Source: Shigella phage Henu11. Taken from it: a stretch of 64,000 bases of DNA. The notes beneath the pieces are model-generated. The model had not been told where the DNA came from. It ran no database searches and saw only the letters and a list, made by a program, of their open reading frames with translations. The DNA lies in sequence record OM953433. The stretch is one strand, 5' to 3'. Positions 571 through 15,029 of this stretch are shown here, one piece after another. How positions within the stretch are numbered: the first letter of the stretch is position 1; the number at the start of each line of letters is the position of its first letter. Position numbers and translations under genes: made by a program.

Positions 571-1452
571 ATGAAAACTACTATTCGAGTTCTACTTAAT
601 TCAAATTCCAAAGGTTCTCATCAAGAGACCTTCAACATTATCCAGTTCCCTTCTGGGGAGATTGGTGGTAACTTCTCAGAAGACTTAGTAGACTTTGCTG
701 AACATGCTGCTGGTAAGATTGAAAACGTAGTCTTCACAGTACAAGGTTATGACAAAGACACACTCTTTGCATTAGCTATGGCTAAAGAAGCAATTGACCG
801 TTTGATTCCTCAGAAAGCAACTCTGAAAACTGTTGTCTTTGGATTCTTACCAAATGCTCGCTATGACCGTCACATGTTTAAAGGTGATGCAGCAGCACTT
901 AAAGTCTTTGCAAATCTTGTAAATGCTATGGAGTTCGATGCAGTATGTGCTCTGGATACTCACAGTAATGTTGCAGAGAATTTGTTTAAGAGCTTCTACA
1001 ACCTCCCTCAAAAAGAGGCAGCAGTCCACTTTGCAAGTGACCCACGCATTGATTACTTAGTGGCTCCAGATGCAGGTGCAGCTAAGAAGACTGAAGAGGC
1101 TGCTAAAGAGGTTGATAAACCTTATATTACAATGGCTAAGGTACGAAACCTGAAAACTGGTGAAATCACTGGTATGCGAATCCTTGATGATGTAGACTTG
1201 ACAGGTAAGACTGTCATGATTCTGGATGATATCTGTGACGGTGGTCGAACCTTTATCGAGGCTGCAAAGTATCTTCGTGAAGCTGGAGCAGAACGTGTGG
1301 AACTGTATGTCACTCATGGGATTTTCTCTAAAGGTGTTGAAAATCTCCTTGACAATGGTATCGACCATATCTACACTACAAACTCACTAGGGGATGAAAA
1401 AGACCGTGGTCTTTCCCACTTCTCACAAGTGACCGTAGCAAATATTGAATAA
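571..1452 (+). CDS. ribose-phosphate pyrophosphokinase (PRPP synthetase) family protein; possibly Adps-like
   Basis: ORF track (start moved to ATG 571 behind a GAGAG SD); PRPP-binding signature ILDDICDGGRTF and LVAPDAGAAKK. Confidence 0.8.
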   Translation: MKTTIRVLLNSNSKGSHQETFNIIQFPSGEIGGNFSEDLVDFAEHAAGKIENVVFTVQGYDKDTLFALAMAKEAIDRLIPQKATLKTVVFGFLPNARYDRHMFKGDAAALKVFANLVNAMEFDAVCALDTHSNVAENLFKSFYNLPQKEAAVHFASDPRIDYLVAPDAGAAKKTEEAAKEVDKPYITMAKVRNLKTGEITGMRILDDVDLTGKTVMILDDICDGGRTFIEAAKYLREAGAERVELYVTHGIFSKGVENLLDNGIDHIYTTNSLGDEKDRGLSHFSQVTVANIE

Positions 1453-1496
1453 CAACTTTAGGGGCTGAAAAGCCCCACTTTGAGAGAGATAAAAAG

Positions 1497-3323
1497 ATGA
1501 CTAAATCACTTTATGCAGTACCAGCAGCACTTAATGCAGATGCCTACAAATCTGGCCATTTCTACCAGTATCCAGATGCTACACAGTATCTTATGCTGAA
1601 CTTAACACCTCGTGGAGATAAATGGTTTAACTCTCCGTTAGAGATTGATGGTGTTGTAGCCTTTGGTATTCAGCGTTTTGTAAAAGACTATCTGGTAGAC
1701 CACTGGAATGCAACGTTCTTTGAACGTGATAAGAAAGAAGCCATTGACGAAATCTTGGAAATCATGAATGGTGTCCTTGGTGCAGATGCTATTGGTCGTC
1801 AACATTGGGAAGAACTTCATGACTTGGGTTACCTACCTGTTGAAGTCTACTCTGTAGAGGAAGGTACAATTGTCCCTATGCGTGTCCCGATGATTGTCTT
1901 TAAAAACACTGTAGAGGGATTCCATTGGGTAGCTGGTTACCTTGAAGATGCTTTCTCTGCTGAAATCTGGAAGGCTTGTACGATTGCAACTATTGCACTG
2001 CATTACAAACGTATCTGTAAACAATGGGCTGACAAGACCTGTGACAATGACTTCCATTTACCTTGGCAGTGTCATGATTTTGCAATGCGTGGTATGTCTG
2101 GCTTCACAGATGATGCTTTTAATGCTGTAGGTCACTTGACCAGCTTTAAAGGTACTGACAGCTTCCCTGCTGTGTATACTGCTAAACGTGCTTATGGTCA
2201 GTTTATGACAATCAGTGATATTGGCAACTCTGTACCAGCAACTGAACACTCTGTGATGTGTGCAAACATTTCATGGAATATGAAAGACCTGACAGAAGAG
2301 GATATTCACTCACAGTACATTATGCAGTCTGAAGGATTACTAGATGCCAAACGTTGGCGTGGTGAGGTAGAAACTTTCCATCGCCTTCTGACAGAAGTTT
2401 ACCCAACTGGTATTGCAAGTGCCGTATCAGATACTTACAACTTCTGGCGTACTGTTACACAGATTCTGCCAGAGCTACGTAATGTAATTCTGAATCGTGA
2501 TGGTAAGTTGGTAATTCGTCCAGACTCTGGAGACCCTGTTCACATTGTTACAGGTTACAAAGCCGTTGAATGGGAAACTGCTAAGTCAATGTTCTACAAG
2601 CACATGAAAGGTCTTGCACCAGATAATACCCATCTGCATGACACAATCTTGAATTGTGAAATGTCTGATATTGGTTTTGGGTTCTCTGCTTGGTTAATCT
2701 CTGAAGGTTATGAGATGGTTGTTGAAAATGAAGATTTTGATTATATTGACACAATCAACCTGATTACCGCTCAGAAAACTGGACAGTTTACTGTGAAGCG
2801 TATGTTAACAGCAGAAATTGATGGAGCTATACACACGCTGTATAACATCTTTGGTGGCACTGTTAACTCCAAAGGGTACAAAGTACTGGATGAGCACATT
2901 GGGCTAATCTACGGTGATTCTATCACTCTGGAAAGGGCTAATGAGATTCTGTCACGTCTTGCTGATAAAGGTTTTGCAAGTTCTAACGTAGTGTTTGGTG
3001 TAGGCTCATACACCTATCAGTACCTGACTCGTGACACCTTTGCATTTGCTGTTAAAGCAACTCTTGCACAGATGGATGGTCAAGAAATTATGCTGGCTAA
3101 AGACCCTAAAACTGACAGCGGTCTTAAGAAGTCTGCTTTTGGTGGAGTTGTCCCTATGTGGGATGGTGACAAGCTGGTAGCTGTAGATGGTTTTGGCTTT
3201 GCAGAGTTTGAAGGTGCAATTGACAACTGTCATAGTGCTTTGAAACTGGTATTTAGTAACTCGCAACCTTATGGTTACGTTAACCTGCGTGATGTTCGAA
3301 ATACTATTGACAAGCAACTTTAA
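1497..3323 (+). CDS. nicotinamide phosphoribosyltransferase (Nampt/NadV) family protein, 608 aa
   Basis: ORF track; N-terminal ADAYKSGH motif typical of Nampt family; immediately downstream of the Prs-like gene. Confidence 0.7.
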   Translation: MTKSLYAVPAALNADAYKSGHFYQYPDATQYLMLNLTPRGDKWFNSPLEIDGVVAFGIQRFVKDYLVDHWNATFFERDKKEAIDEILEIMNGVLGADAIGRQHWEELHDLGYLPVEVYSVEEGTIVPMRVPMIVFKNTVEGFHWVAGYLEDAFSAEIWKACTIATIALHYKRICKQWADKTCDNDFHLPWQCHDFAMRGMSGFTDDAFNAVGHLTSFKGTDSFPAVYTAKRAYGQFMTISDIGNSVPATEHSVMCANISWNMKDLTEEDIHSQYIMQSEGLLDAKRWRGEVETFHRLLTEVYPTGIASAVSDTYNFWRTVTQILPELRNVILNRDGKLVIRPDSGDPVHIVTGYKAVEWETAKSMFYKHMKGLAPDNTHLHDTILNCEMSDIGFGFSAWLISEGYEMVVENEDFDYIDTINLITAQKTGQFTVKRMLTAEIDGAIHTLYNIFGGTVNSKGYKVLDEHIGLIYGDSITLERANEILSRLADKGFASSNVVFGVGSYTYQYLTRDTFAFAVKATLAQMDGQEIMLAKDPKTDSGLKKSAFGGVVPMWDGDKLVAVDGFGFAEFEGAIDNCHSALKLVFSNSQPYGYVNLRDVRNTIDKQL

Positions 3324-7526: not shown

Positions 7527-7550
7527 GGGGCTGCTTCGGCAGCCTTTTTT
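7527..7550 (+). terminator. rho-independent terminator
   Basis: ggggctgc-ttcg-gcagcc hairpin plus T6. Confidence 0.6.
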
Positions 7551-7570
7551 ATTTGAAAAATGTGCAGGTT
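7543..7570 (+). promoter_or_regulatory. sigma70-like promoter TTGAAA-N16-TATAAT
   Basis: ttgaaa 7543-7548, tataat 7565-7570. Confidence 0.5.
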
Positions 7571-7611: not shown

Positions 7612-8160
7612 ATGAAGAAATTTGTTTTAGGTTTGTGCTTATTCTTTACAGCACATTTAGCTACAGCGTCTGACTGTCCAGAGCTTACAATCAGCCAGAA
7701 AGTTAATATGTTAAAAGCATATAACTATGGCGAAGGACAGATGGGAAAAGGTTGGGGAATCCCTTTAGCAGCTATAGCCTTACAAGAGTCACAATTAGGT
7801 GTCATGTTAGAAAATAAAAAGACTCATGATTATGGTGTTTTCCAAAATCACTTGAAGACTGTTGTAAAGCGTAACAAGGTATCTCCAAAGGTTGCTAAGA
7901 AGAAGCTAGTAAGTGACTTCCATTACTCAGCGAAAGAGGCTCATAAGGAGCTATTATTCTGGACTAAGGTTCATGGTAACCCAGATGGAAAGTACTCTAT
8001 GAAGCGTGTCCTAGCTTCTTATAATGCTGGTTACAAATACAAGATTCCAAAGGCTAGACAATACTCTCAAGATGTGTACAATAACATGAAACTGCTTGCT
8101 CAATGTGAGTTTGCAACAAACATTAAAAAGGTAAAATATGAGCGAATCAAAACAATTTGA
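7612..8160 (+). CDS. secreted protein with lytic-transglycosylase-like motif
   Basis: ORF track (start moved to ATG 7612 behind AGGAG); signal peptide MKKFVLGLCLFFTAHLATA; AIALQESQ...YGVFQN resembles SLT domain. Confidence 0.45.
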   Translation: MKKFVLGLCLFFTAHLATASDCPELTISQKVNMLKAYNYGEGQMGKGWGIPLAAIALQESQLGVMLENKKTHDYGVFQNHLKTVVKRNKVSPKVAKKKLVSDFHYSAKEAHKELLFWTKVHGNPDGKYSMKRVLASYNAGYKYKIPKARQYSQDVYNNMKLLAQCEFATNIKKVKYERIKTI

Positions 8161-8833
8161 TATGGTTCTGTGTCATGCTTATGATATTAAGCCACTTGAT
8201 TTAGATATCAGTTCTGCAAGTTGGTCAGATATTGCTAAAGCTGACTTTGCAGATACAGCAAGAAATGTTGTGTGTAGATTTGAAGACTTCCACTCAACAA
8301 AGACACAGATTCCTTGTCAGGATTTGCTAACAGGTAAAACTGTAGATGTTGGTCGTAACAGCCTTATCTTGGTTGCAAAGAACTTGGAAGAAAAACGTAA
8401 AATGGTCTTAGCAGACATTGACGGTGTTCTTACAAGCTTTAATAAGGAGCTTAATGCAACTTTGTTAGATGATGGTACTTACTCACAGTATACTAACTTG
8501 GTAGACTCTCGCAGAGCTAAACCAACATATGTTTTTAACATCCTGTGTGGTATATCAAGAAATGCTGATATAGGATTCTTAACTGCTCGTGGAGAATCAC
8601 AAAGAGTTGTCACACATCTTTTCCTGAATGAGAATGTAGACAGTGATTTCCTACTGTTTATGCGTGGATTTGGTGACAATGAGATTAGTGCAGAAAGTTT
8701 GAAAGTTCGTATGCTTCAGTCTTGCATTCTACCTTACTATGATGTAGTATGCTTTATAGAAGATACAGTGAAGAACGTGGCAAAGGTTGAAAGAATCTTA
8801 CCACACATCAAAACAATGCTTGTTAAAAACTGA
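8138..8833 (+). CDS. hypothetical protein
   Basis: ORF track 231 aa. Confidence 0.55.
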   Translation: MSESKQFDMVLCHAYDIKPLDLDISSASWSDIAKADFADTARNVVCRFEDFHSTKTQIPCQDLLTGKTVDVGRNSLILVAKNLEEKRKMVLADIDGVLTSFNKELNATLLDDGTYSQYTNLVDSRRAKPTYVFNILCGISRNADIGFLTARGESQRVVTHLFLNENVDSDFLLFMRGFGDNEISAESLKVRMLQSCILPYYDVVCFIEDTVKNVAKVERILPHIKTMLVKN

Positions 8834-10685: not shown

Positions 10686-10878
10686 TTTCTGCACTAAGTG
10701 TTCTGTTGAGATGTTTGGAAAAGATACAGGAGACTTAAAAGGTCTCTTTACAAAGGCAGAATTTAAAGCTGGTTCAGCAATGCCAGTAATCTGTGAAGGT
10801 TGCGGTGCTTTATGGGTAGACCATGAAGGTAACCGAGTTAAACCATCTGAAGATAACGAACGTTGGGAGCATTACTAA
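10678..10878 (+). CDS. small Cys-rich (zinc-ribbon-like) protein
   Basis: ORF track; CTKCS...CEGCG. Confidence 0.4.
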   Translation: MADFCTKCSVEMFGKDTGDLKGLFTKAEFKAGSAMPVICEGCGALWVDHEGNRVKPSEDNERWEHY

Positions 10879-10879
10879 T

Positions 10880-11674
10880 ATGGGTATCGTAAAAATTATT
10901 AAAGGTGATATCTTTAAAGATTTTGATGGTAAGAAGTTTGATATCATTGGTCACGGTTGTAACTGCATGAACTTGATGCCAGCAGGTATCGCAGCAACAA
11001 TTGCTAAACGCTACCCAAAAGCTTATGAAACTGACGCTGAAGTTTATGCTACAGTAGGTGGTGAAAATCATAACCCTAAGCATCTAATGCTTGGTAACAT
11101 CTCTGTAGCACGTTTTAAGCAGGGTCGAATTGCTAACCTTTACACTCAGGTTATCACTGGCAAAGATGCACGATACAACGCCTTAGAAGCAGCTTTACAG
11201 CGTCTTAACAACTACTGTAAAGTTAATCAACTTAAGAAAGTTGGGCTTCCGATGATTGGTGCAGGGATTGGTGGTCTTGATAGCATGGCTGTACTGTCCA
11301 TTATCAACCAGACTATGAAGGATGTTGACGTTTATATGTATGTCTATGAAGATAAGATGTACAGTCAGTTGACTAGTCCTGTTACTGGTTGGGAGAACTT
11401 CAGTGAGCCTCAATACTTTGATGGTGTTGCTGTGGTAGGCAAGGATAAAGTTACCCTCAAGGTGAAGCGTAATGGCAAGGTACACACCAGTTACCCTCCG
11501 GTTGAGAAGTACAATCGAAGTAACGCTCAAGTTACCCACCCGTTACAAGGCCACCACCACAGAGCGGTAACGTTTGGCGATGATGCAAGTGTATATATCA
11601 ATGCGACTACAGAAGAGTTTGCAGAAGATTATATCACACATGAAAACGTAAACTATGTTGAAGCACGTAACTAA
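10880..11674 (+). CDS. macro-domain-like protein with C-terminal extension
   Basis: ORF track with start moved to ATG 10880; GDIF...DIIGHGCNCMNLMPAGIAATIAKRYP and VGLPMIGAGIGGLD resemble macro-domain signature blocks. Confidence 0.5.
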   Translation: MGIVKIIKGDIFKDFDGKKFDIIGHGCNCMNLMPAGIAATIAKRYPKAYETDAEVYATVGGENHNPKHLMLGNISVARFKQGRIANLYTQVITGKDARYNALEAALQRLNNYCKVNQLKKVGLPMIGAGIGGLDSMAVLSIINQTMKDVDVYMYVYEDKMYSQLTSPVTGWENFSEPQYFDGVAVVGKDKVTLKVKRNGKVHTSYPPVEKYNRSNAQVTHPLQGHHHRAVTFGDDASVYINATTEEFAEDYITHENVNYVEARN

Positions 11675-11744
11675 TAAGTTACCCAGATAAACATAGACAA
11701 GCCCTCCAAAGTTTGAGTTTAAAATCTCAGGTAAGGAGGGCTTT

Positions 11745-11930
11745 TTCATTTTAAATTTGTGCAGGTATAGTTGCATAGAACTCTGGACAGATTTCTTTAG
11801 CTGAACTCCAAAGGGAAAATTCATTTCAAATTTGTGCAGGTTTAGACTCCAAAGGGGTTTTTCATTTTCAATCTGTGCAGATGCAGTTGGACTCCAAAGG
11901 GAAAATTCATTTTCAGTTTGTGCAGGTAGG
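11745..11930. repeat. four tandem copies of a ~50-65 bp unit ending in TTCATTTT-N-TTGTGCAGGT
   Basis: copies end near 11766, 11831, 11881, 11928. Confidence 0.6.
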
Positions 11931-12099
11931 TAGCTGTAGGAAACCAGCCCCACCATCCCCTCTTACTCCCCTTCCTCCCAAAAGTCAAGATAAAAATTTG
12001 TAGAGAACTCAAAAATAATTCTTGACTAGATTCCTGTTTTAGTGTATCCGCATACGTGCGTTCTATTCACGAAACATCAAAAATATTTTTAAAAATTTT

Positions 12100-12127
12100 G
12101 TTGACTTCATAAATCCAGTCTTATAGT
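12100..12127 (+). promoter_or_regulatory. putative promoter (TTGAC-like -35, TATAGT -10)
   Basis: gttgac 12100-12105, tatagt 12122-12127. Confidence 0.4.
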
Positions 12128-12178
12128 ATTTGCATCAACGGGAAACATCCCAACAATCCTAAACTGGAGAATCTGAAA

Positions 12179-12385
12179 ATGTTATATCAACGTGAGTTAA
12201 TGATTGTTGACAACAACAAAACAAATAAACGTCGTTTCTATATGCTAATTTGTGATGTTTGGCAACGTATCTCAGAAAAAGATTTTGATAAATATGTTAA
12301 TACGTCAATCAGGTCAGATTGTTACTTGACAAATCATACAAGACAGTTTACAAGACATACAGCAATTTATTATTACAACGTTTAA
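12179..12385 (+). CDS. hypothetical small early protein
   Basis: ORF track; conserved leader. Confidence 0.5.
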   Translation: MLYQRELMIVDNNKTNKRRFYMLICDVWQRISEKDFDKYVNTSIRSDCYLTNHTRQFTRHTAIYYYNV

Positions 12386-12397
12386 GAAGGCTTGACA

Positions 12398-12559
12398 ATG
12401 ATTAAAGAAAACGATGTAATACAATACAAAGATTTAGACGGATACCTAAAAATTGGTAAAGTCTTCTATCTCTATAAATCTGCTATGGGTAATAATTGTG
12501 TAGCCCTTACAAATGGCGATAAAATAACCATGAAAGATTTTATAAAAATTATTGCATAA
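12398..12559 (+). CDS. hypothetical small protein (53 aa)
   Basis: Unlisted ORF; AAGAAGG SD. Confidence 0.3.
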   Translation: MIKENDVIQYKDLDGYLKIGKVFYLYKSAMGNNCVALTNGDKITMKDFIKIIA

Positions 12560-12564
12560 AGTAC

Positions 12565-12593
12565 TTTACATGGGGTTTAAAAGCTAGTATCTT
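12565..12593 (+). promoter_or_regulatory. hairpin-embedded promoter TTTACA-N17-TATCTT
   Basis: lies within inverted repeat ggggttt...aagcccc. Confidence 0.4.
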
Positions 12594-12643
12594 AAGCCCC
12601 AGATAAAGAGCTTTACCAACAATCCTAAACTGGAGAATCTGAA

Positions 12644-13024
12644 ATGAAATATCGTGCGCCTAAATTTATCAACAAAGAAAACTTTCGTAGTATCTTAGAG
12701 GAAACTATGAAAGAAAACTTCAAAGGAAAAATAATTGTTGTTCACGCTTACAATTTTAAGTATGATGTTAATGGTAACCGTATCAACCACTACAAAGCTA
12801 CTATGCTTGACGGTACATTATCCGGTGAAAAAGCTATCATAAATGCTATTGCAGGACGTGGTAAAACTGTGATACGATGCGAAAAAAGACGCTATCAAGG
12901 CGGAAAATATGGATATGAAGATGCAATGTATCATCTTGATAAAATGGGGTATGATGTAGAGAAAGCTGGAGTATCCCAAACTATTGGTAGTGACGGCTAC
13001 GTTACAGTTTTCAAAATTAATTAA
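12644..13024 (+). CDS. hypothetical small early protein
   Basis: ORF track; conserved leader. Confidence 0.55.
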   Translation: MKYRAPKFINKENFRSILEETMKENFKGKIIVVHAYNFKYDVNGNRINHYKATMLDGTLSGEKAIINAIAGRGKTVIRCEKRRYQGGKYGYEDAMYHLDKMGYDVEKAGVSQTIGSDGYVTVFKIN

Positions 13025-13033
13025 ATAAAGTCC

Positions 13034-13062
13034 TTTACATGGGGTTTATAGTTAGATAAGAT
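13034..13062 (+). promoter_or_regulatory. hairpin-embedded promoter TTTACA-N17-TAAGAT
   Basis: same cassette architecture. Confidence 0.4.
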
Positions 13063-13114
13063 AAGCCCCAGATAAAGAGCTTTACCAACAATCAACCTAA
13101 ACTGGAGTATCAAA

Positions 13115-13372
13115 ATGGCTACTATCAAAAACATCATTGTATCTGCAAAATCTCGTGATGACGCTCGCGCAACTGCTAAAAAACTAAATGGTAAAGTGGT
13201 TGACAACGGAAAAGAATCTGCTGTAAGATGGGGCGTGAAATGTGATAAGGAAATTACTTTAAAACGTAGTTCCTATGACCTTTTCAAAGGTGTAAAAGCA
13301 ATCGGTAGAACTAACGTCTACACGAAGAAAGGTTATAAAATGCACTTATCATTAACTGACAATTTAATCTGA
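13115..13372 (+). CDS. hypothetical small early protein
   Basis: ORF track; conserved leader. Confidence 0.55.
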   Translation: MATIKNIIVSAKSRDDARATAKKLNGKVVDNGKESAVRWGVKCDKEITLKRSSYDLFKGVKAIGRTNVYTKKGYKMHLSLTDNLI

Positions 13373-13380
13373 TAAAGTGC

Positions 13381-13409
13381 TTTACATGGGGTTTATAAGT
13401 TGCTAGTAT
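13381..13409 (+). promoter_or_regulatory. hairpin-embedded promoter TTTACA-N17-TAGTAT
   Basis: same cassette architecture. Confidence 0.4.
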
Positions 13410-13464
13410 AAGCCCCAGATAAAGAGCTTTACTAACCAATAGTCCTAAACTGGAGAATCTTAAT

Positions 13465-13977
13465 ATGTCATACGTTGAAGCTACCTTTGAAGTTCAAAAA
13501 GAAAAATTCACTATCATCTATGAAGCTGTTAATATTTGTGAAGCATCCCATTGTGTGGAAAATTGGAAGTTTACCGATGAGCACAAAGGCGGGGTTACAA
13601 TCAAACTTAAAAATCCAGAGCGTAACGGGTACAAATATGCAATTCCACAGCATTACAGCCTTTCTCAATTGATGAGTGATTATGCTAAACAAGGCCGCGA
13701 AAATCCATCTATAGAGGCTTACAAGAGCTTACAAGATGAATTACAAAGAGATTTAGAGGCTAACAGCTATGTACTATTTGCAAAGGTAGAAGATAAAGAA
13801 GGTAATACGGTATTAAATAGCTTTTCACTTGCTTATGGTTTCGATTGGTGTTATCTTGACGGGGAAGATTTAGATTCACGATTAGAAGAGGAAGTGTCGA
13901 ACTCCGATGGAGAATCTGAAGTAATGGAACGTTTGGAAGACTTGAAAGATTCTGTTATGAATATCTTTAATATCTAA
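13465..13977 (+). CDS. hypothetical early protein
   Basis: ORF track; conserved leader. Confidence 0.55.
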   Translation: MSYVEATFEVQKEKFTIIYEAVNICEASHCVENWKFTDEHKGGVTIKLKNPERNGYKYAIPQHYSLSQLMSDYAKQGRENPSIEAYKSLQDELQRDLEANSYVLFAKVEDKEGNTVLNSFSLAYGFDWCYLDGEDLDSRLEEEVSNSDGESEVMERLEDLKDSVMNIFNI

Positions 13978-13982
13978 AGTGC

Positions 13983-14011
13983 TTTACATGGGGCTATCAA
14001 GTTGATAAGAT
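13983..14011 (+). promoter_or_regulatory. hairpin-embedded promoter TTTACA-N17-TAAGAT
   Basis: same cassette architecture. Confidence 0.4.
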
Positions 14012-14060
14012 AGCCCCAGATAAAGAGCTTTACCAACAATCCTAAACTGGAGAATCTAAA

Positions 14061-14357
14061 ATGTTTATTGCCGCAAACGTTAGAACTAAATTAAGCCAGC
14101 TATTAAGCAATATTCAATTCATTGAATCCATGCGCCGTACCTCTGAAGCCGTAGAATGGTATCACGGAAAGATTGACAAAAGGGAAGTTGTGATTTGTGT
14201 ATGGAGCTTTTGTAAAGAATACAGAAAGCCGTTGCTTCAGATAGATATCTATGATAATGCTAATAAATCAGCTATTAAATCCACAAAAGATATGGTAGAT
14301 TCTTATGAAATTAGTCACACTGGTAAACTATTCCACAAAGGTAAAAACAAATGCTAA
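14061..14357 (+). CDS. hypothetical small early protein
   Basis: ORF track; conserved leader. Confidence 0.55.
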   Translation: MFIAANVRTKLSQLLSNIQFIESMRRTSEAVEWYHGKIDKREVVICVWSFCKEYRKPLLQIDIYDNANKSAIKSTKDMVDSYEISHTGKLFHKGKNKC

Positions 14358-14698
14358 TCACATACACTGCAATTTTTATCTCTATTGTGGCGCTCTATAA
14401 AGCCTTGCAAGCGCACAGTATAGCTAATAAGGCACTTACAAGGGATTTAAAAATAAATCTTGTACGGGGCTTTTTAGAGCGTTTGAGCTTAGAACAATTG
14501 AAACGTTTAGAGATGAGCTTTCGATTCAAAGCAGAGACATACCGGATTGATAACATCCTAGATGGTGATTTTAAATTAATCAGTGATTATGACATACTTC
14601 TTGAGTCAATTCAAGATATAAACCTGAAAGATTATTATATTGTAATAGCACAAGAAATTAATAAAAAAGAGCTTGCAATGCAGAATCAAAACAAGTAA
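14351..14698 (+). CDS. hypothetical protein with N-terminal TM segment
   Basis: ORF track; start overlaps upstream stop. Confidence 0.5.
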   Translation: MLITYTAIFISIVALYKALQAHSIANKALTRDLKINLVRGFLERLSLEQLKRLEMSFRFKAETYRIDNILDGDFKLISDYDILLESIQDINLKDYYIVIAQEINKKELAMQNQNK

Positions 14699-14756
14699 AG
14701 TATTCATCAACGGGGCAAGATAGAAGCCCCAACAATCCTAAACTGGAGAATCTAAA

Positions 14757-15029
14757 ATGTATACTACTAATGACGGTCGCACTTTGAACGTAACTTTAAA
14801 ACACTATGTAGACGGTGTATTAAACTTTGAAGAGTTAAGAGCAGAACAGCAACTATTAGATTGGCAAGTAGCAGGTTTACAAAAAACCGCTACAGGATAT
14901 GGAAAGAAAATTCCTACATCTTGGAAAGTTCGATACCTTGGAAAGTTACGCAGAATTTATCAAGATGTTTATAGTAATAGCGGTGTAAGTTACATTATTG
15001 TTAGTGGTAAAAAGTTGTATTTAGTCTAA
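14757..15029 (+). CDS. hypothetical small early protein
   Basis: ORF track; conserved leader. Confidence 0.55.
   Translation: MYTTNDGRTLNVTLKHYVDGVLNFEELRAEQQLLDWQVAGLQKTATGYGKKIPTSWKVRYLGKLRRIYQDVYSNSGVSYIIVSGKKLYLV

What the first reader, a model, noticed from the sequence alone, without database searches (positions are those of the whole stretch)
10880..11674. Macro-domain-like protein in the early region
The N-terminal 150 aa carry macro-domain-like blocks (GDIF...DIIGHGCNCMNLMPAGIAATIAKRYP; VGLPMIGAGIGG) with an unusual Cys-containing variant of the first motif, plus a ~110-aa C-terminal extension. Phage macro domains can remove ADP-ribose marks or process ADP-ribose derivatives; this fits with the Prs-like/Nampt-like module 8 kb upstream and would oppose ADP-ribosylating host defences.
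Basis: inference. Interest (0 to 1): 0.55.

Follow-up and report, generated by a model that had tools for sequence, protein, structure and literature searches.

The report
Phage macrodomain counter-defence enzyme, Tk.4/AdfM type

Summary
Confirmed. Window 10880-11674 (+) is a 264-aa gene with an N-terminal macrodomain (Pfam PF01661 above threshold; AF2 model matches TARG1, Poa1p and DarG) and a roughly 110-aa C-terminal extension.

The window is a Mooglevirus (Ounavirinae). This gene is 100% identical to the one in Shigella phage Henu12. Sister phages, FelixO1 and Bas63 annotate the orthologue as "phosphatase" or "macro domain protein".

The "unusual Cys motif" (H-G-C-N) is the invariant hallmark of this Poa1p-like family. 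The real oddity is Pro34, where every relative I aligned around this codon has Gly.

Two homologues in the same PHROG family have been studied:
- T4 Tk.4/AdfM (39% identity to its T2 orthologue) is required to resist DarTG2.
- Vibrio phage Gary Adpp (30% identity) is an ADPR-1''-phosphate phosphatase that lets NARP1 overcome aRES.

The upstream "Prs/Nampt" pair is NARP1, which was discovered in the related phage Bas63. Signature residues place the protein with Tk.4 rather than Adpp, but the tree is unresolved.

The best reading is a hydrolase of ADP-ribose-1''-linked groups used in counter-defence. Anti-DarT2 activity is most likely, and Adpp acting in trans on NARP1 is a strong rival.

The C-terminal domain is lineage-restricted, evolves fast and has no recognisable fold. 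This is a new member of a known kind, of moderate interest.

The parts
10880..11674 (+). Whole gene: 264-aa macrodomain protein with a C-terminal extension (includes the stop codon)
   Evidence: ORF and sequence. Same-length CDS annotated in Sf13 gp59, Sf18 gp70 and SUSP1 as phosphatase or macro domain protein. 100% identical to Henu12.
10865..10869 (+). Shine-Dalgarno-like GGGAG, 10 nt before the ATG at 10880
   Evidence: Read directly from the sequence. It supports the 10880 start over 10823.
10880..11344 (+). Macrodomain, aa 1-155
   Evidence: Pfam PF01661 covers aa 25-141. PADLOC DarG matches aa 7-160 at E 3e-13. Foldseek finds TARG1, Poa1p and DarG. dN/dS is 0.06-0.19.
10952..10963 (+). 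H25-G26-C27-N28 motif. N28 aligns with the Asn mutated in PhiKZ AdfM (N23A); H25 aligns with Poa1p H23.
   Evidence: Invariant in alignment A1. Residue tables. N23A reduces PhiKZ AdfM activity (PMC13309987).
10979..10981 (+). Codon 34 is CCA (Pro), in the first position of the G-x-G diphosphate-binding loop. The close relatives I aligned have GGT (Gly).
   Evidence: Three adjacent base differences from Sf13, Sf18, SUSP1 and pinkbiff. Henu12 is the only 100% match among 33 records. The 26-nt Pro version has no match in IMG/VR.
11135..11149 (+). N86-L-Y-T-Q90 motif. Q90 sits where TARG1 K84, DarG K80 and the PhiKZ AdfM Lys lie.
   Evidence: Profile alignments to PDB chains and residue tables. 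T2 Tk.4 and BT1257 also have Q here.
11249..11275 (+). P124-M-I-G-A-G-I-G-G132, the second phosphate-binding loop. G131 sits where TARG1 has D125.
   Evidence: P124, G127 and G129 are invariant. Alignment to TARG1.
11345..11410 (+). Acidic linker, aa 156-177, with low model confidence
   Evidence: pLDDT blocks of 69 and 57, and below 50 at aa 171-175. pI 4.05.
11411..11671 (+). C-terminal domain, aa 178-264: six strands and one C-terminal helix, with no recognisable family or fold
11690..11752 (+). Hairpin followed by a T-run just after the stop codon; probably the intrinsic terminator of this transcription unit
   Evidence: Inverted repeat I3: AGCCCTCC, a spacer, then GGAGGGCTTTTT, also read from the sequence. 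The consensus terminator scan did not call it because the loop is long.
571..1452 (+). Context: Adps-like ("Prs-like") gene of NARP1
   Evidence: Pfam Pribosyl_synth and Pribosyltran. Its Bas63 counterpart is Adps (10.1101/2024.02.11.579819).
1497..3323 (+). Context: Namat-like ("Nampt-like") gene of NARP1
   Evidence: Pfam NAMPT_N and NAPRTase. 255 phage records carry it at 60% identity or more, the same number that carry the macrodomain-plus-extension protein at 80% coverage or more.

Best explanation
The gene encodes a Tk.4/AdfM-type (Poa1p-like) macrodomain enzyme that the phage uses against ADP-ribose-based host immunity.

Proposed mechanism: the macrodomain binds the ADP-ribose moiety through its two glycine-rich loops (G-x-G-I-A and P-x-I-G-A-G-I-G-G). 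Using the H25/N28 site, it cleaves whatever is attached to the 1'' carbon of the distal ribose.

The most likely physiological substrate is ADP-ribose that the host toxin DarT2 places on thymidines of single-stranded phage DNA. Removing it would restore replication, so the protein would act as an orphan antitoxin, like T4 AdfM.

The roughly 87-aa C-terminal domain, joined by a flexible acidic linker, is an Ounavirinae-specific accessory. I infer that it targets the enzyme or binds a partner.

What is shown here: the fold, family membership, conserved binding and catalytic-site residues, purifying selection, and homology to AdfM.

What is inferred: the substrate, the activity of this particular protein, and any role of the C-terminal domain.
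For: Macrodomain by profile and by fold.

The window protein, T2 Tk.4 and PhiKZ gp104 all fall in phrog_335. It is 39% identical over 136 aa to T2 Tk.4, E 2e-18, and shares every hallmark block.

T4 tk.4 was the single hit on a DarTG2 host, and a clean knockout sensitises T4 (10.1101/2025.11.20.689424).

PhiKZ AdfM removes ADP-ribose from a DarT2-modified oligonucleotide in vitro, and N23A weakens it (PMC13309987). N23 aligns with the invariant N28 here.

The DarG models of PADLOC (E 3e-13) and NCBIfam (E 5e-13) are the only hits in those libraries, and both score higher than T2 Tk.4 does.

At three diagnostic positions the protein has the Tk.4 signature (G26, T89, I130), not the signature of NARP1-adjacent Adpp (Q26, G89, L130).

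The macrodomain is under strong purifying selection, dN/dS 0.06-0.19.

No ADP-ribosyltransferase, Tpt1/KptA or RNA ligase is annotated in the roughly 68 kb of the sister genome Sf13 that I inspected. That argues against a self-antitoxin or RNA-repair role.
Against: No experiment exists on any Ounavirinae orthologue.

For the Tk.4 type, the anti-DarTG2 role is genetic only; removal of ADP-ribose from DNA is inferred in that preprint.

The Lys that aligns with DarG K80 and TARG1 K84, and is also present in PhiKZ AdfM, is Gln here. TARG1 D125 aligns with Gly here.

A biochemically proven ADPR-1''-phosphate phosphatase, Gary Adpp, is almost as close (30% identity, E 3e-16), and this phage carries the NARP1 pathway that such an enzyme would serve.

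The NJ tree backbone has below 20% bootstrap support. One NARP1-adjacent macrodomain (phiAbaA1) has the Tk.4 signature, so the signature argument is soft.

This particular allele carries Pro34 in the first phosphate-binding loop, which could impair it.
Confidence: 0.45

Rival explanations
1. The protein is an Adpp working in trans. The macrodomain would dephosphorylate ADPR-1''-phosphate, which aRES (RES-domain) defence proteins make from NAD+. The resulting ADP-ribose would feed the phage's own NARP1 enzymes (Adps and Namat, 7.6-10 kb upstream), which rebuild NAD+. It might also do this in addition to acting on DarT2 adducts.
For: Gary Adpp converts ADPR-1P to ADPR, and the three-gene operon overrides aRES (10.64898/2026.01.28.702374).

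Adpp is Poa1p-like, with H-x-C/A-N and N-x-Y-x-Q motifs, and is 30% identical to the window protein, E 3e-16.

The window carries NARP1-type genes, and NARP1 was discovered in the related phage Bas63, which also has the macrodomain orthologue.

Namat and the macrodomain-plus-extension protein occur in equal numbers of records, 255 each. A relative at only 38% identity keeps the order Namat, rIIA, rIIB, Pnk, macrodomain.

Yeast Poa1p is the best single-sequence PDB hit.

One NARP1-adjacent macrodomain (phiAbaA1) has the same Tk.4-type signature.
Against: The gene is not in or next to the NARP1 operon. About a dozen genes and at least one terminator-like site lie between them.

Eight of nine NARP1-adjacent Adpp sequences sampled differ at positions 26, 89 and 130, where the window protein agrees with Tk.4.

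Identity to the T2 orthologue of AdfM is higher, 39% against 30%.

The equal record counts could simply mean both genes are core genes of the subfamily.
Confidence: 0.3
2. The protein does housekeeping or RNA-repair chemistry rather than counter-defence. It would clear ADP-ribose-1''-phosphate made by a Tpt1/KptA-type RNA repair step, or deacetylate O-acetyl-ADP-ribose, as older "phosphatase", "A1pp" and "YmdB" annotations imply.
For: Poa1p and OARD1 are among the nearest solved relatives. Records annotate orthologues as phosphatase or as O-acetyl-ADP-ribose deacetylase. A polynucleotide kinase gene lies 2 kb upstream.
Against: No Tpt1/KptA, 2H phosphoesterase, RNA ligase or sirtuin is annotated in the parts of Sf13 inspected. 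The two homologues that have been tested both act in counter-defence. The polynucleotide kinase ORF gave no Pfam hit, so its own assignment rests on annotation alone.
Confidence: 0.07
3. The protein is a non-catalytic binder or sponge for ADP-ribose-derived immune signals, such as the Thoeris signals His-ADPR or gcADPR. A related possibility is that this Henu12 allele is simply a crippled enzyme because of Pro34.
For: Macrodomains can act as sensors: type II Thoeris ThsA binds His-ADPR through a macrodomain. The Lys and Asp that TARG1 and DarG use are absent. Pro34 replaces the loop Gly through three adjacent base changes seen in no other sequence I aligned.
Against: H25 and N28 are invariant across the family, and the macrodomain is under strong constraint. 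Relatives with the same Gln are active enzymes (Gary Adpp) or are genetically required (Tk.4). No phage macrodomain sponge turned up in the papers searched.
Confidence: 0.08

Closest known systems
T4/T2 Tk.4 = AdfM (anti-DarT factor macrodomain), HIDEN-SEQ preprint 10.1101/2025.11.20.689424
   Same: Same PHROG family (335). 39% identity to the T2 orthologue over 136 aa. Identical signature: H-G-C-N, N-L-Y-T-Q and G-A-G-I-G. Gln sits at the DarG Lys position. Both are stand-alone genes in lytic myoviruses of enterobacteria.
   Different: Tk.4 is 155 aa with no C-terminal domain. T4 has no NARP1 (my own knowledge, not tested here). This allele has Pro34.
Adpp, the NARP1-associated ADPR-1''-phosphate phosphatase (Vibrio phage Gary KNV71_gp137), preprint 10.64898/2026.01.28.702374
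   Same: Poa1p-like macrodomain with 30% identity, E 3e-16. It shares H25, N28, Q90 and both Gly loops. This phage also encodes NARP1.
   Different: Adpp sits inside or within two genes of the Adps-Namat operon, whereas this gene is about 7.6 kb away. Most Adpp have Q26, G89 and L130 rather than G26, T89 and I130. Adpp has no C-terminal domain.
PhiKZ gp104 = AdfM (DarG2-like), Cell Rep 2026, PMC13309987
   Same: Phage macrodomain in phrog_335. The catalytic-site Asn (N23) aligns with N28. It is shown to remove DarT2 ADP-ribose from DNA.
   Different: Only 22% identity, E 3e-4. It keeps the DarG-type Lys and lacks the His. It groups with DarG rather than with the Tk.4/Adpp group (291 of 300 bootstraps). 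It is imported into the phage nucleus.
Bacterial DarG antitoxin (NCBIfam NF048014, PADLOC DarG; PDB 5m3e, 5m3i)
   Same: The macrodomain half matches at E about 1e-13, with Foldseek target TM about 0.81.
   Different: 49 bits against a cut-off of 250. Only model positions 2-153 of 338 match. There is no DarT-binding C-terminal domain, no adjacent DarT, and Gln replaces the catalytic Lys.
Yeast Poa1p (PDB 6lfq-6lfu) and human TARG1/OARD1 (4j5r, 4j5s)
   Same: Best structural matches, with target TM 0.76-0.88. Poa1p shares H-x-C-N-C, and H25 aligns with Poa1p H23.
   Different: 22-25% identity. The TARG1 K84/D125 dyad corresponds to Q90/G131 here. Poa1p has Ser at position 90 and a long insertion.

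Membership tests
Macro domain (Pfam PF01661) | Profile score above the curated gathering threshold | tested here: met
   29.6 bits against a cut-off of 22, aa 25-141 covering profile positions 2-117 of 118.
Macro domain (Pfam PF01661) | Macrodomain alpha/beta fold with two Gly-rich ADP-ribose-binding loops | tested here: met
   AF2 pLDDT is 86.6. Foldseek finds TARG1, Poa1p and DarG at E 1e-10 to 1e-9 with target TM 0.76-0.88. G36, I37, A38, P124, G127 and G129 are conserved. The first loop Gly is Pro34 in this allele.
Phage Poa1p-like macrodomain family (phrog_335, containing Tk.4/AdfM and Adpp) | Profile match, plus the H-x-[CA]-N and N-x-Y-x-Q motifs | tested here: met
   phrog_335 at E 1.5e-105. 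T2 Tk.4 scores 1.3e-65 and PhiKZ gp104 8e-43 in the same family. Motif table.
AdfM (anti-DarT2 factor, Tk.4 type) | Sequence signature shared with Tk.4 (G26, T89, Q90, I130) | tested here: met
   All four positions match T2 Tk.4, and 8 of 9 Adpp sequences differ at three of them. 39% identity, E 2e-18.
AdfM (anti-DarT2 factor, Tk.4 type) | Forms a supported clade with Tk.4 that excludes Adpp | tested here: inconclusive
   The NJ backbone has below 20% bootstrap support. The five Ounavirinae-type sequences group together in 197 of 300 replicates but have no supported sister group.
AdfM (anti-DarT2 factor, Tk.4 type) | Protects the phage from DarTG2 and removes ADP-ribose from DarT2-modified ssDNA | not testable with these tools
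   Needs plaque assays and an in vitro de-ADP-ribosylation assay. For T4 Tk.4 only the genetic result is reported.
Adpp (NARP1-AP phosphatase) | Encoded within or next to (within two genes of) the Adps-Namat operon | tested here: not met
   Namat ends at 3323 and the macrodomain gene starts at 10880. rIIA, rIIB, a lysozyme-like gene, Pnk, spanins and small ORFs lie between them.
Adpp (NARP1-AP phosphatase) | The phage genome also encodes NARP1 (Adps + Namat) | tested here: met
   Window 571-1452 has Pribosyl_synth, and 1497-3323 has NAMPT_N plus NAPRTase. These are the same domains as Bas63 genes 79-80, which are NARP1.
Adpp (NARP1-AP phosphatase) | Dephosphorylates ADPR-1''-phosphate to ADPR | not testable with these tools
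   Shown only for Gary Adpp.
DarG antitoxin (NCBIfam NF048014 equivalog) | Whole-protein score above the curated cut-off, including the C-terminal DarT-binding domain | tested here: not met
   49.1 bits against a cut-off of 250. Only model positions 2-153 of 338 match. The C-terminal domain alone hits nothing in NCBIfam, even at E 10.
DarG antitoxin (NCBIfam NF048014 equivalog) | Adjacent darT toxin gene | tested here: not met
   The neighbours are small hypothetical proteins, spanins and an intergenic repeat region.
TARG1/DarG catalytic type | Catalytic Lys (TARG1 K84, DarG K80), and Asp (TARG1 D125) | tested here: not met
   Q90 and G131 occupy those positions.

The most novel reading that the evidence does not exclude
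The Ounavirinae protein is a two-module counter-defence factor. A promiscuous Tk.4-type macrodomain would both strip DarT2 adducts from DNA and convert the aRES product ADPR-1P to ADPR. That would complete the phage's NARP1 pathway from a distance. The fast-evolving, fold-orphan C-terminal domain would be a second, non-enzymatic module that binds a host defence protein or phage DNA, functionally analogous to the DarT-binding domain of DarG.
Probability: 0.12. Interest if true: 0.6.

Novelty: new member of a known kind. Interest (0 to 1): 0.36.

Why it matters
Phage macrodomains went from bare annotation to known function only in 2025-2026, as AdfM against DarTG2 and Adpp against aRES.

FelixO1-like phages are therapy and biocontrol candidates. 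They are also the lineage in which NARP1 was discovered. Yet in the papers I searched, their conserved macrodomain gene has not been linked to either function.

If it is an AdfM, it predicts that this whole subfamily resists DarTG2. If it is an Adpp acting in trans, the survey that looked only within two genes of NARP1 undercounts NARP1-AP, and Bas63-type phages should resist aRES.

The orphan C-terminal domain is the only structurally new element. Bas63 is genetically tractable, so all of this can be tested directly.

Tried and rejected

**C-terminal domain as the DarT-binding half of DarG.** There was no match to the second half of either DarG model, and no NCBIfam or Pfam hit at E 10.

**A paralogue or a separate-gene version of the C-terminal domain.** None was found in the window or in the T2 tk.4 neighbourhood. 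The short database hits P0029 and P0030 are fragments of the same family.

**Self-antitoxin to a phage ADP-ribosyltransferase, or an RNA-repair partner.** No such gene is annotated in the Sf13 regions inspected.

**Phylogeny to separate AdfM from Adpp.** The tree was unresolved.

**Published data on Ounavirinae.** The Bas63 PhageMaP and cryo-EM papers and the BASEL paper contain nothing on this gene.

**AlphaFold database fold search.** The afdb50 library was unavailable.

**One script** timed out and was rewritten.

Full report
**What is there.** Window 10880-11674 (+) is a clean 264-aa ORF. It starts two bases after the stop of the upstream gene and has a GGGAG 10 nt before its ATG. The N-terminus MGIVKIIKGD aligns with the first residues of T2 Tk.4 and yeast Poa1p. 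So 10880 is the true start, not the longer 10823 start used in one database record.

The window is a Mooglevirus of the FelixO1-like subfamily Ounavirinae. This gene is 100% identical to the one in Shigella phage Henu12 and 96-99% identical to those in Shigella phages Sf13-Sf18.

In Henu12 the gene is labelled "hypothetical". Sister phages annotate the same-length gene as "phosphatase" or "macro domain-containing protein, pfam01661". This holds for Sf13, Sf18, SUSP1, FelixO1, Bas63 (JohannRWettstein) and about 200 Felixounavirus records.

**The macrodomain is real.**
- Pfam PF01661 scores above its curated threshold: 29.6 bits against 22.
- PHROG 335 ("phosphatase") matches at E 1.5e-105.
- A profile of 23 homologues finds solved macrodomains at E 1e-18 to 1e-17. 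These are BT1257, Poa1p, M. tuberculosis DarG, TARG1 and SCO6735.
- An AlphaFold2 model (pLDDT 86.6) superposes on TARG1, Poa1p and DarG with target TM 0.76-0.88.

Invariant residues across the family are H25, G26, C27, N28, G36, A38, N86, T89, Q90, P124, G127 and G129.

The real deviation is Pro34. Codon 34 is CCA here but GGT (Gly) in Sf13, Sf18, SUSP1 and pinkbiff, which means three adjacent base changes. Henu12 is the only 100% match among 33 near-identical records, and the Pro version has no match in IMG/VR. All solved relatives and T2 Tk.4 have Gly at this position. It is the first Gly of the G-x-G phosphate-binding loop. I cannot tell whether it is a sequencing artefact, a crippling mutation or a harmless one.

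**What the family does.** Three recent papers bear on this.

1. The T4 homologue Tk.4 was the single T4 gene depleted on a DarTG2-expressing host. A clean knockout sensitised T4, and the gene was renamed AdfM. Enzymatic removal of ADP-ribose from DNA was inferred there, not shown (10.1101/2025.11.20.689424).

2. PhiKZ gp104, independently named AdfM, removes ADP-ribose from a DarT2-modified oligonucleotide in vitro and rescues DarT2 toxicity. Its N23A mutant is weakened (PMC13309987).

3. Some phages insert a Poa1p-like macrodomain, Adpp, into the NARP1 operon (Adps-Adpp-Namat). Purified Adpp from Vibrio phage Gary converts ADPR-1''-phosphate to ADPR. ADPR-1''-phosphate is the product of the NAD+-depleting aRES defence, so this conversion lets NARP1 rebuild NAD+ (10.64898/2026.01.28.702374).

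The window protein, T2 Tk.4 and PhiKZ gp104 all fall in phrog_335. Pairwise similarities are:

| Pair | Identity | E-value |
|---|---|---|
| Window protein vs T2 Tk.4 | 39% over 136 aa | 2e-18 |
| Window protein vs Gary Adpp | 30% over 164 aa | 3e-16 |
| T2 Tk.4 vs Gary Adpp | 35% over 140 aa | 2e-23 |
| Window protein vs PhiKZ gp104 | 22% over 127 aa | 3e-4 |

**The upstream module.** The "Prs-like/Nampt-like" pair lies at window 571-1452 (Pribosyl_synth) and 1497-3323 (NAMPT_N plus NAPRTase). These are the same domains as Bas63 genes 79-80, in which NARP1 was discovered. There the "Prs" is really an ADPR pyrophosphokinase (Adps) and the "Nampt" a nicotinamide ADP-ribose transferase (Namat) (10.1101/2024.02.11.579819).

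However, the macrodomain gene is not part of the operon. rIIA, rIIB, a lysozyme-like gene, Pnk, spanins and several small ORFs separate them, along with at least one terminator-like site.

The same order persists in a relative whose macrodomain protein is only 38% identical. Namat and the macrodomain-plus-extension protein occur in equal numbers of phage records, 255 each. That is what would be expected if both are simply core genes of the subfamily.

**Choosing between AdfM and Adpp.** A neighbour-joining tree of 37 macrodomains has no supported backbone (below 20% of 300 bootstraps). The five Ounavirinae-type sequences group together in 197 of 300 replicates but have no reliable sister group.

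Signature positions are more informative:

| Group | Position 26 | Position 89 | Position 130 |
|---|---|---|---|
| Ounavirinae, T2 Tk.4, Acinetobacter Tk.4, nearly all metagenomic relatives | G (H-G-C-N) | T (N-L-Y-T-Q) | I (G-A-G-I-G-G) |
| 8 of 9 NARP1-adjacent Adpp | Q (H-Q-[AC]-N) | G, A or S | L or R |

The exception is Acinetobacter phage phiAbaA1. Its NARP1-adjacent macrodomain has the Tk.4 signature and pairs with a T4-like Tk.4 in 161 of 300 replicates.

The window protein is therefore of the Tk.4 type. But that type can also sit next to NARP1, so the signature argument is only moderate.

The Lys that aligns with TARG1 K84 and DarG K80, and is also present in PhiKZ AdfM, is Gln here, in Tk.4 and in Adpp. 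TARG1 D125 aligns with Gly. The chemistry therefore probably relies on the H25/N28 site, not on the TARG1/DarG dyad. This is inference.

The DarG models of PADLOC and NCBIfam are the only hits in those libraries. They match through the macrodomain half only, at 49 bits against a cut-off of 250, so the protein is not a DarG.

**The C-terminal domain.** Residues 178-264 follow an acidic, low-confidence linker. Two independent AF2 runs predict the same six strands and C-terminal helix, although three of the five models in the domain-only run were poor.

No relative or analogue was found:
- BFVD returns only the protein's own family.
- An exhaustive HMMER scan of 1.8 billion representatives finds only its own family.
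- Pfam and NCBIfam give nothing.
- An apparent Ig-like hit is an artefact of repeat summation.

The domain is coding and constrained, with dN/dS 0.15 against SUSP1. It evolves much faster than the macrodomain: 47% against 75% identity to the pinkbiff orthologue, and dN 0.50 against 0.21. It occurs only fused to this macrodomain, in Ounavirinae-like phages. Its role is unknown. Targeting or partner binding is a guess.

The protein is a new, two-domain member of the phage Tk.4/AdfM-Adpp macrodomain family. I rate anti-DarT2 DNA de-ADP-ribosylation at about 0.45. ADPR-1P phosphatase activity serving NARP1 in trans is at about 0.30, and the two are not exclusive. The remainder is split between housekeeping, sponge and inactive-allele readings.

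Nothing here is categorically new. The genuinely open items are the substrate, the orphan C-terminal domain and the odd Pro34.

Noticed in passing
window 10979-10981: Codon 34 of the macrodomain gene is CCA (Pro) where Sf13, Sf18, SUSP1 and pinkbiff have GGT (Gly). All three bases differ, and each is the straight complement of the base in the relatives. Henu12 is the only identical record. This could be an assembly artefact or a strain-specific change in the ADP-ribose-binding loop.
   Followed up: partly
window 11724-11927 (+), and 7548-7569: Four direct copies of a roughly 43-nt unit lie just downstream of the gene. Each ends in TTCATTTnAAnTTTGTGCAGGT, and some are preceded by a small hairpin. 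A fifth, weaker copy of the motif sits between rIIB and the next gene. Only 0.02 copies are expected by chance. They look like repeated terminator/promoter cassettes, and one overlaps a -10-like TATAGT. Phage Mordin annotates the equivalent region as "terminator / repeat_region".
   Followed up: partly
window 11543-11956 (-): A 137-aa minus-strand ORF, annotated as a gene in Henu12 (Gp3) and Sf13 (gp58), consists largely of the repeat units read as protein (recurring peptide LHKFEMNFPFGVQL). It overlaps the 3' end of the macrodomain gene and is probably not a real gene.
   Followed up: no
window 10823-10879; Henu12 record OQ834936.1: The source-like record annotates the macrodomain gene as a 283-aa hypothetical protein starting at 10823. 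That start overlaps the upstream gene by 56 nt. Homologue N-termini and the ribosome-binding site support 10880 instead.
   Followed up: yes
window 571-3323 (+): The genes annotated in relatives as ribose-phosphate pyrophosphokinase and nicotinamide phosphoribosyltransferase are counterparts of the Bas63 NARP1 enzymes Adps and Namat, so the public annotations of their chemistry are outdated.
   Followed up: partly
window 8138-8833 (+): The ORF annotated in sister phages as polynucleotide kinase gave no Pfam-A hit at E 0.001 or better. In a distant relative the equivalent gene has only faint HAD_PNKP hits.
   Followed up: no
locus L009 (Logan SRR29078251 contig), 11252-14820: In an 87-kb uncultured phage contig carrying a stand-alone Tk.4-type macrodomain (P0015), a reverse-transcriptase gene (RVT_1) and an 875-aa protein with weak to faint HATPase_c-type Pfam hits lie about 0.8 kb downstream, after one intervening gene.
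   Followed up: no
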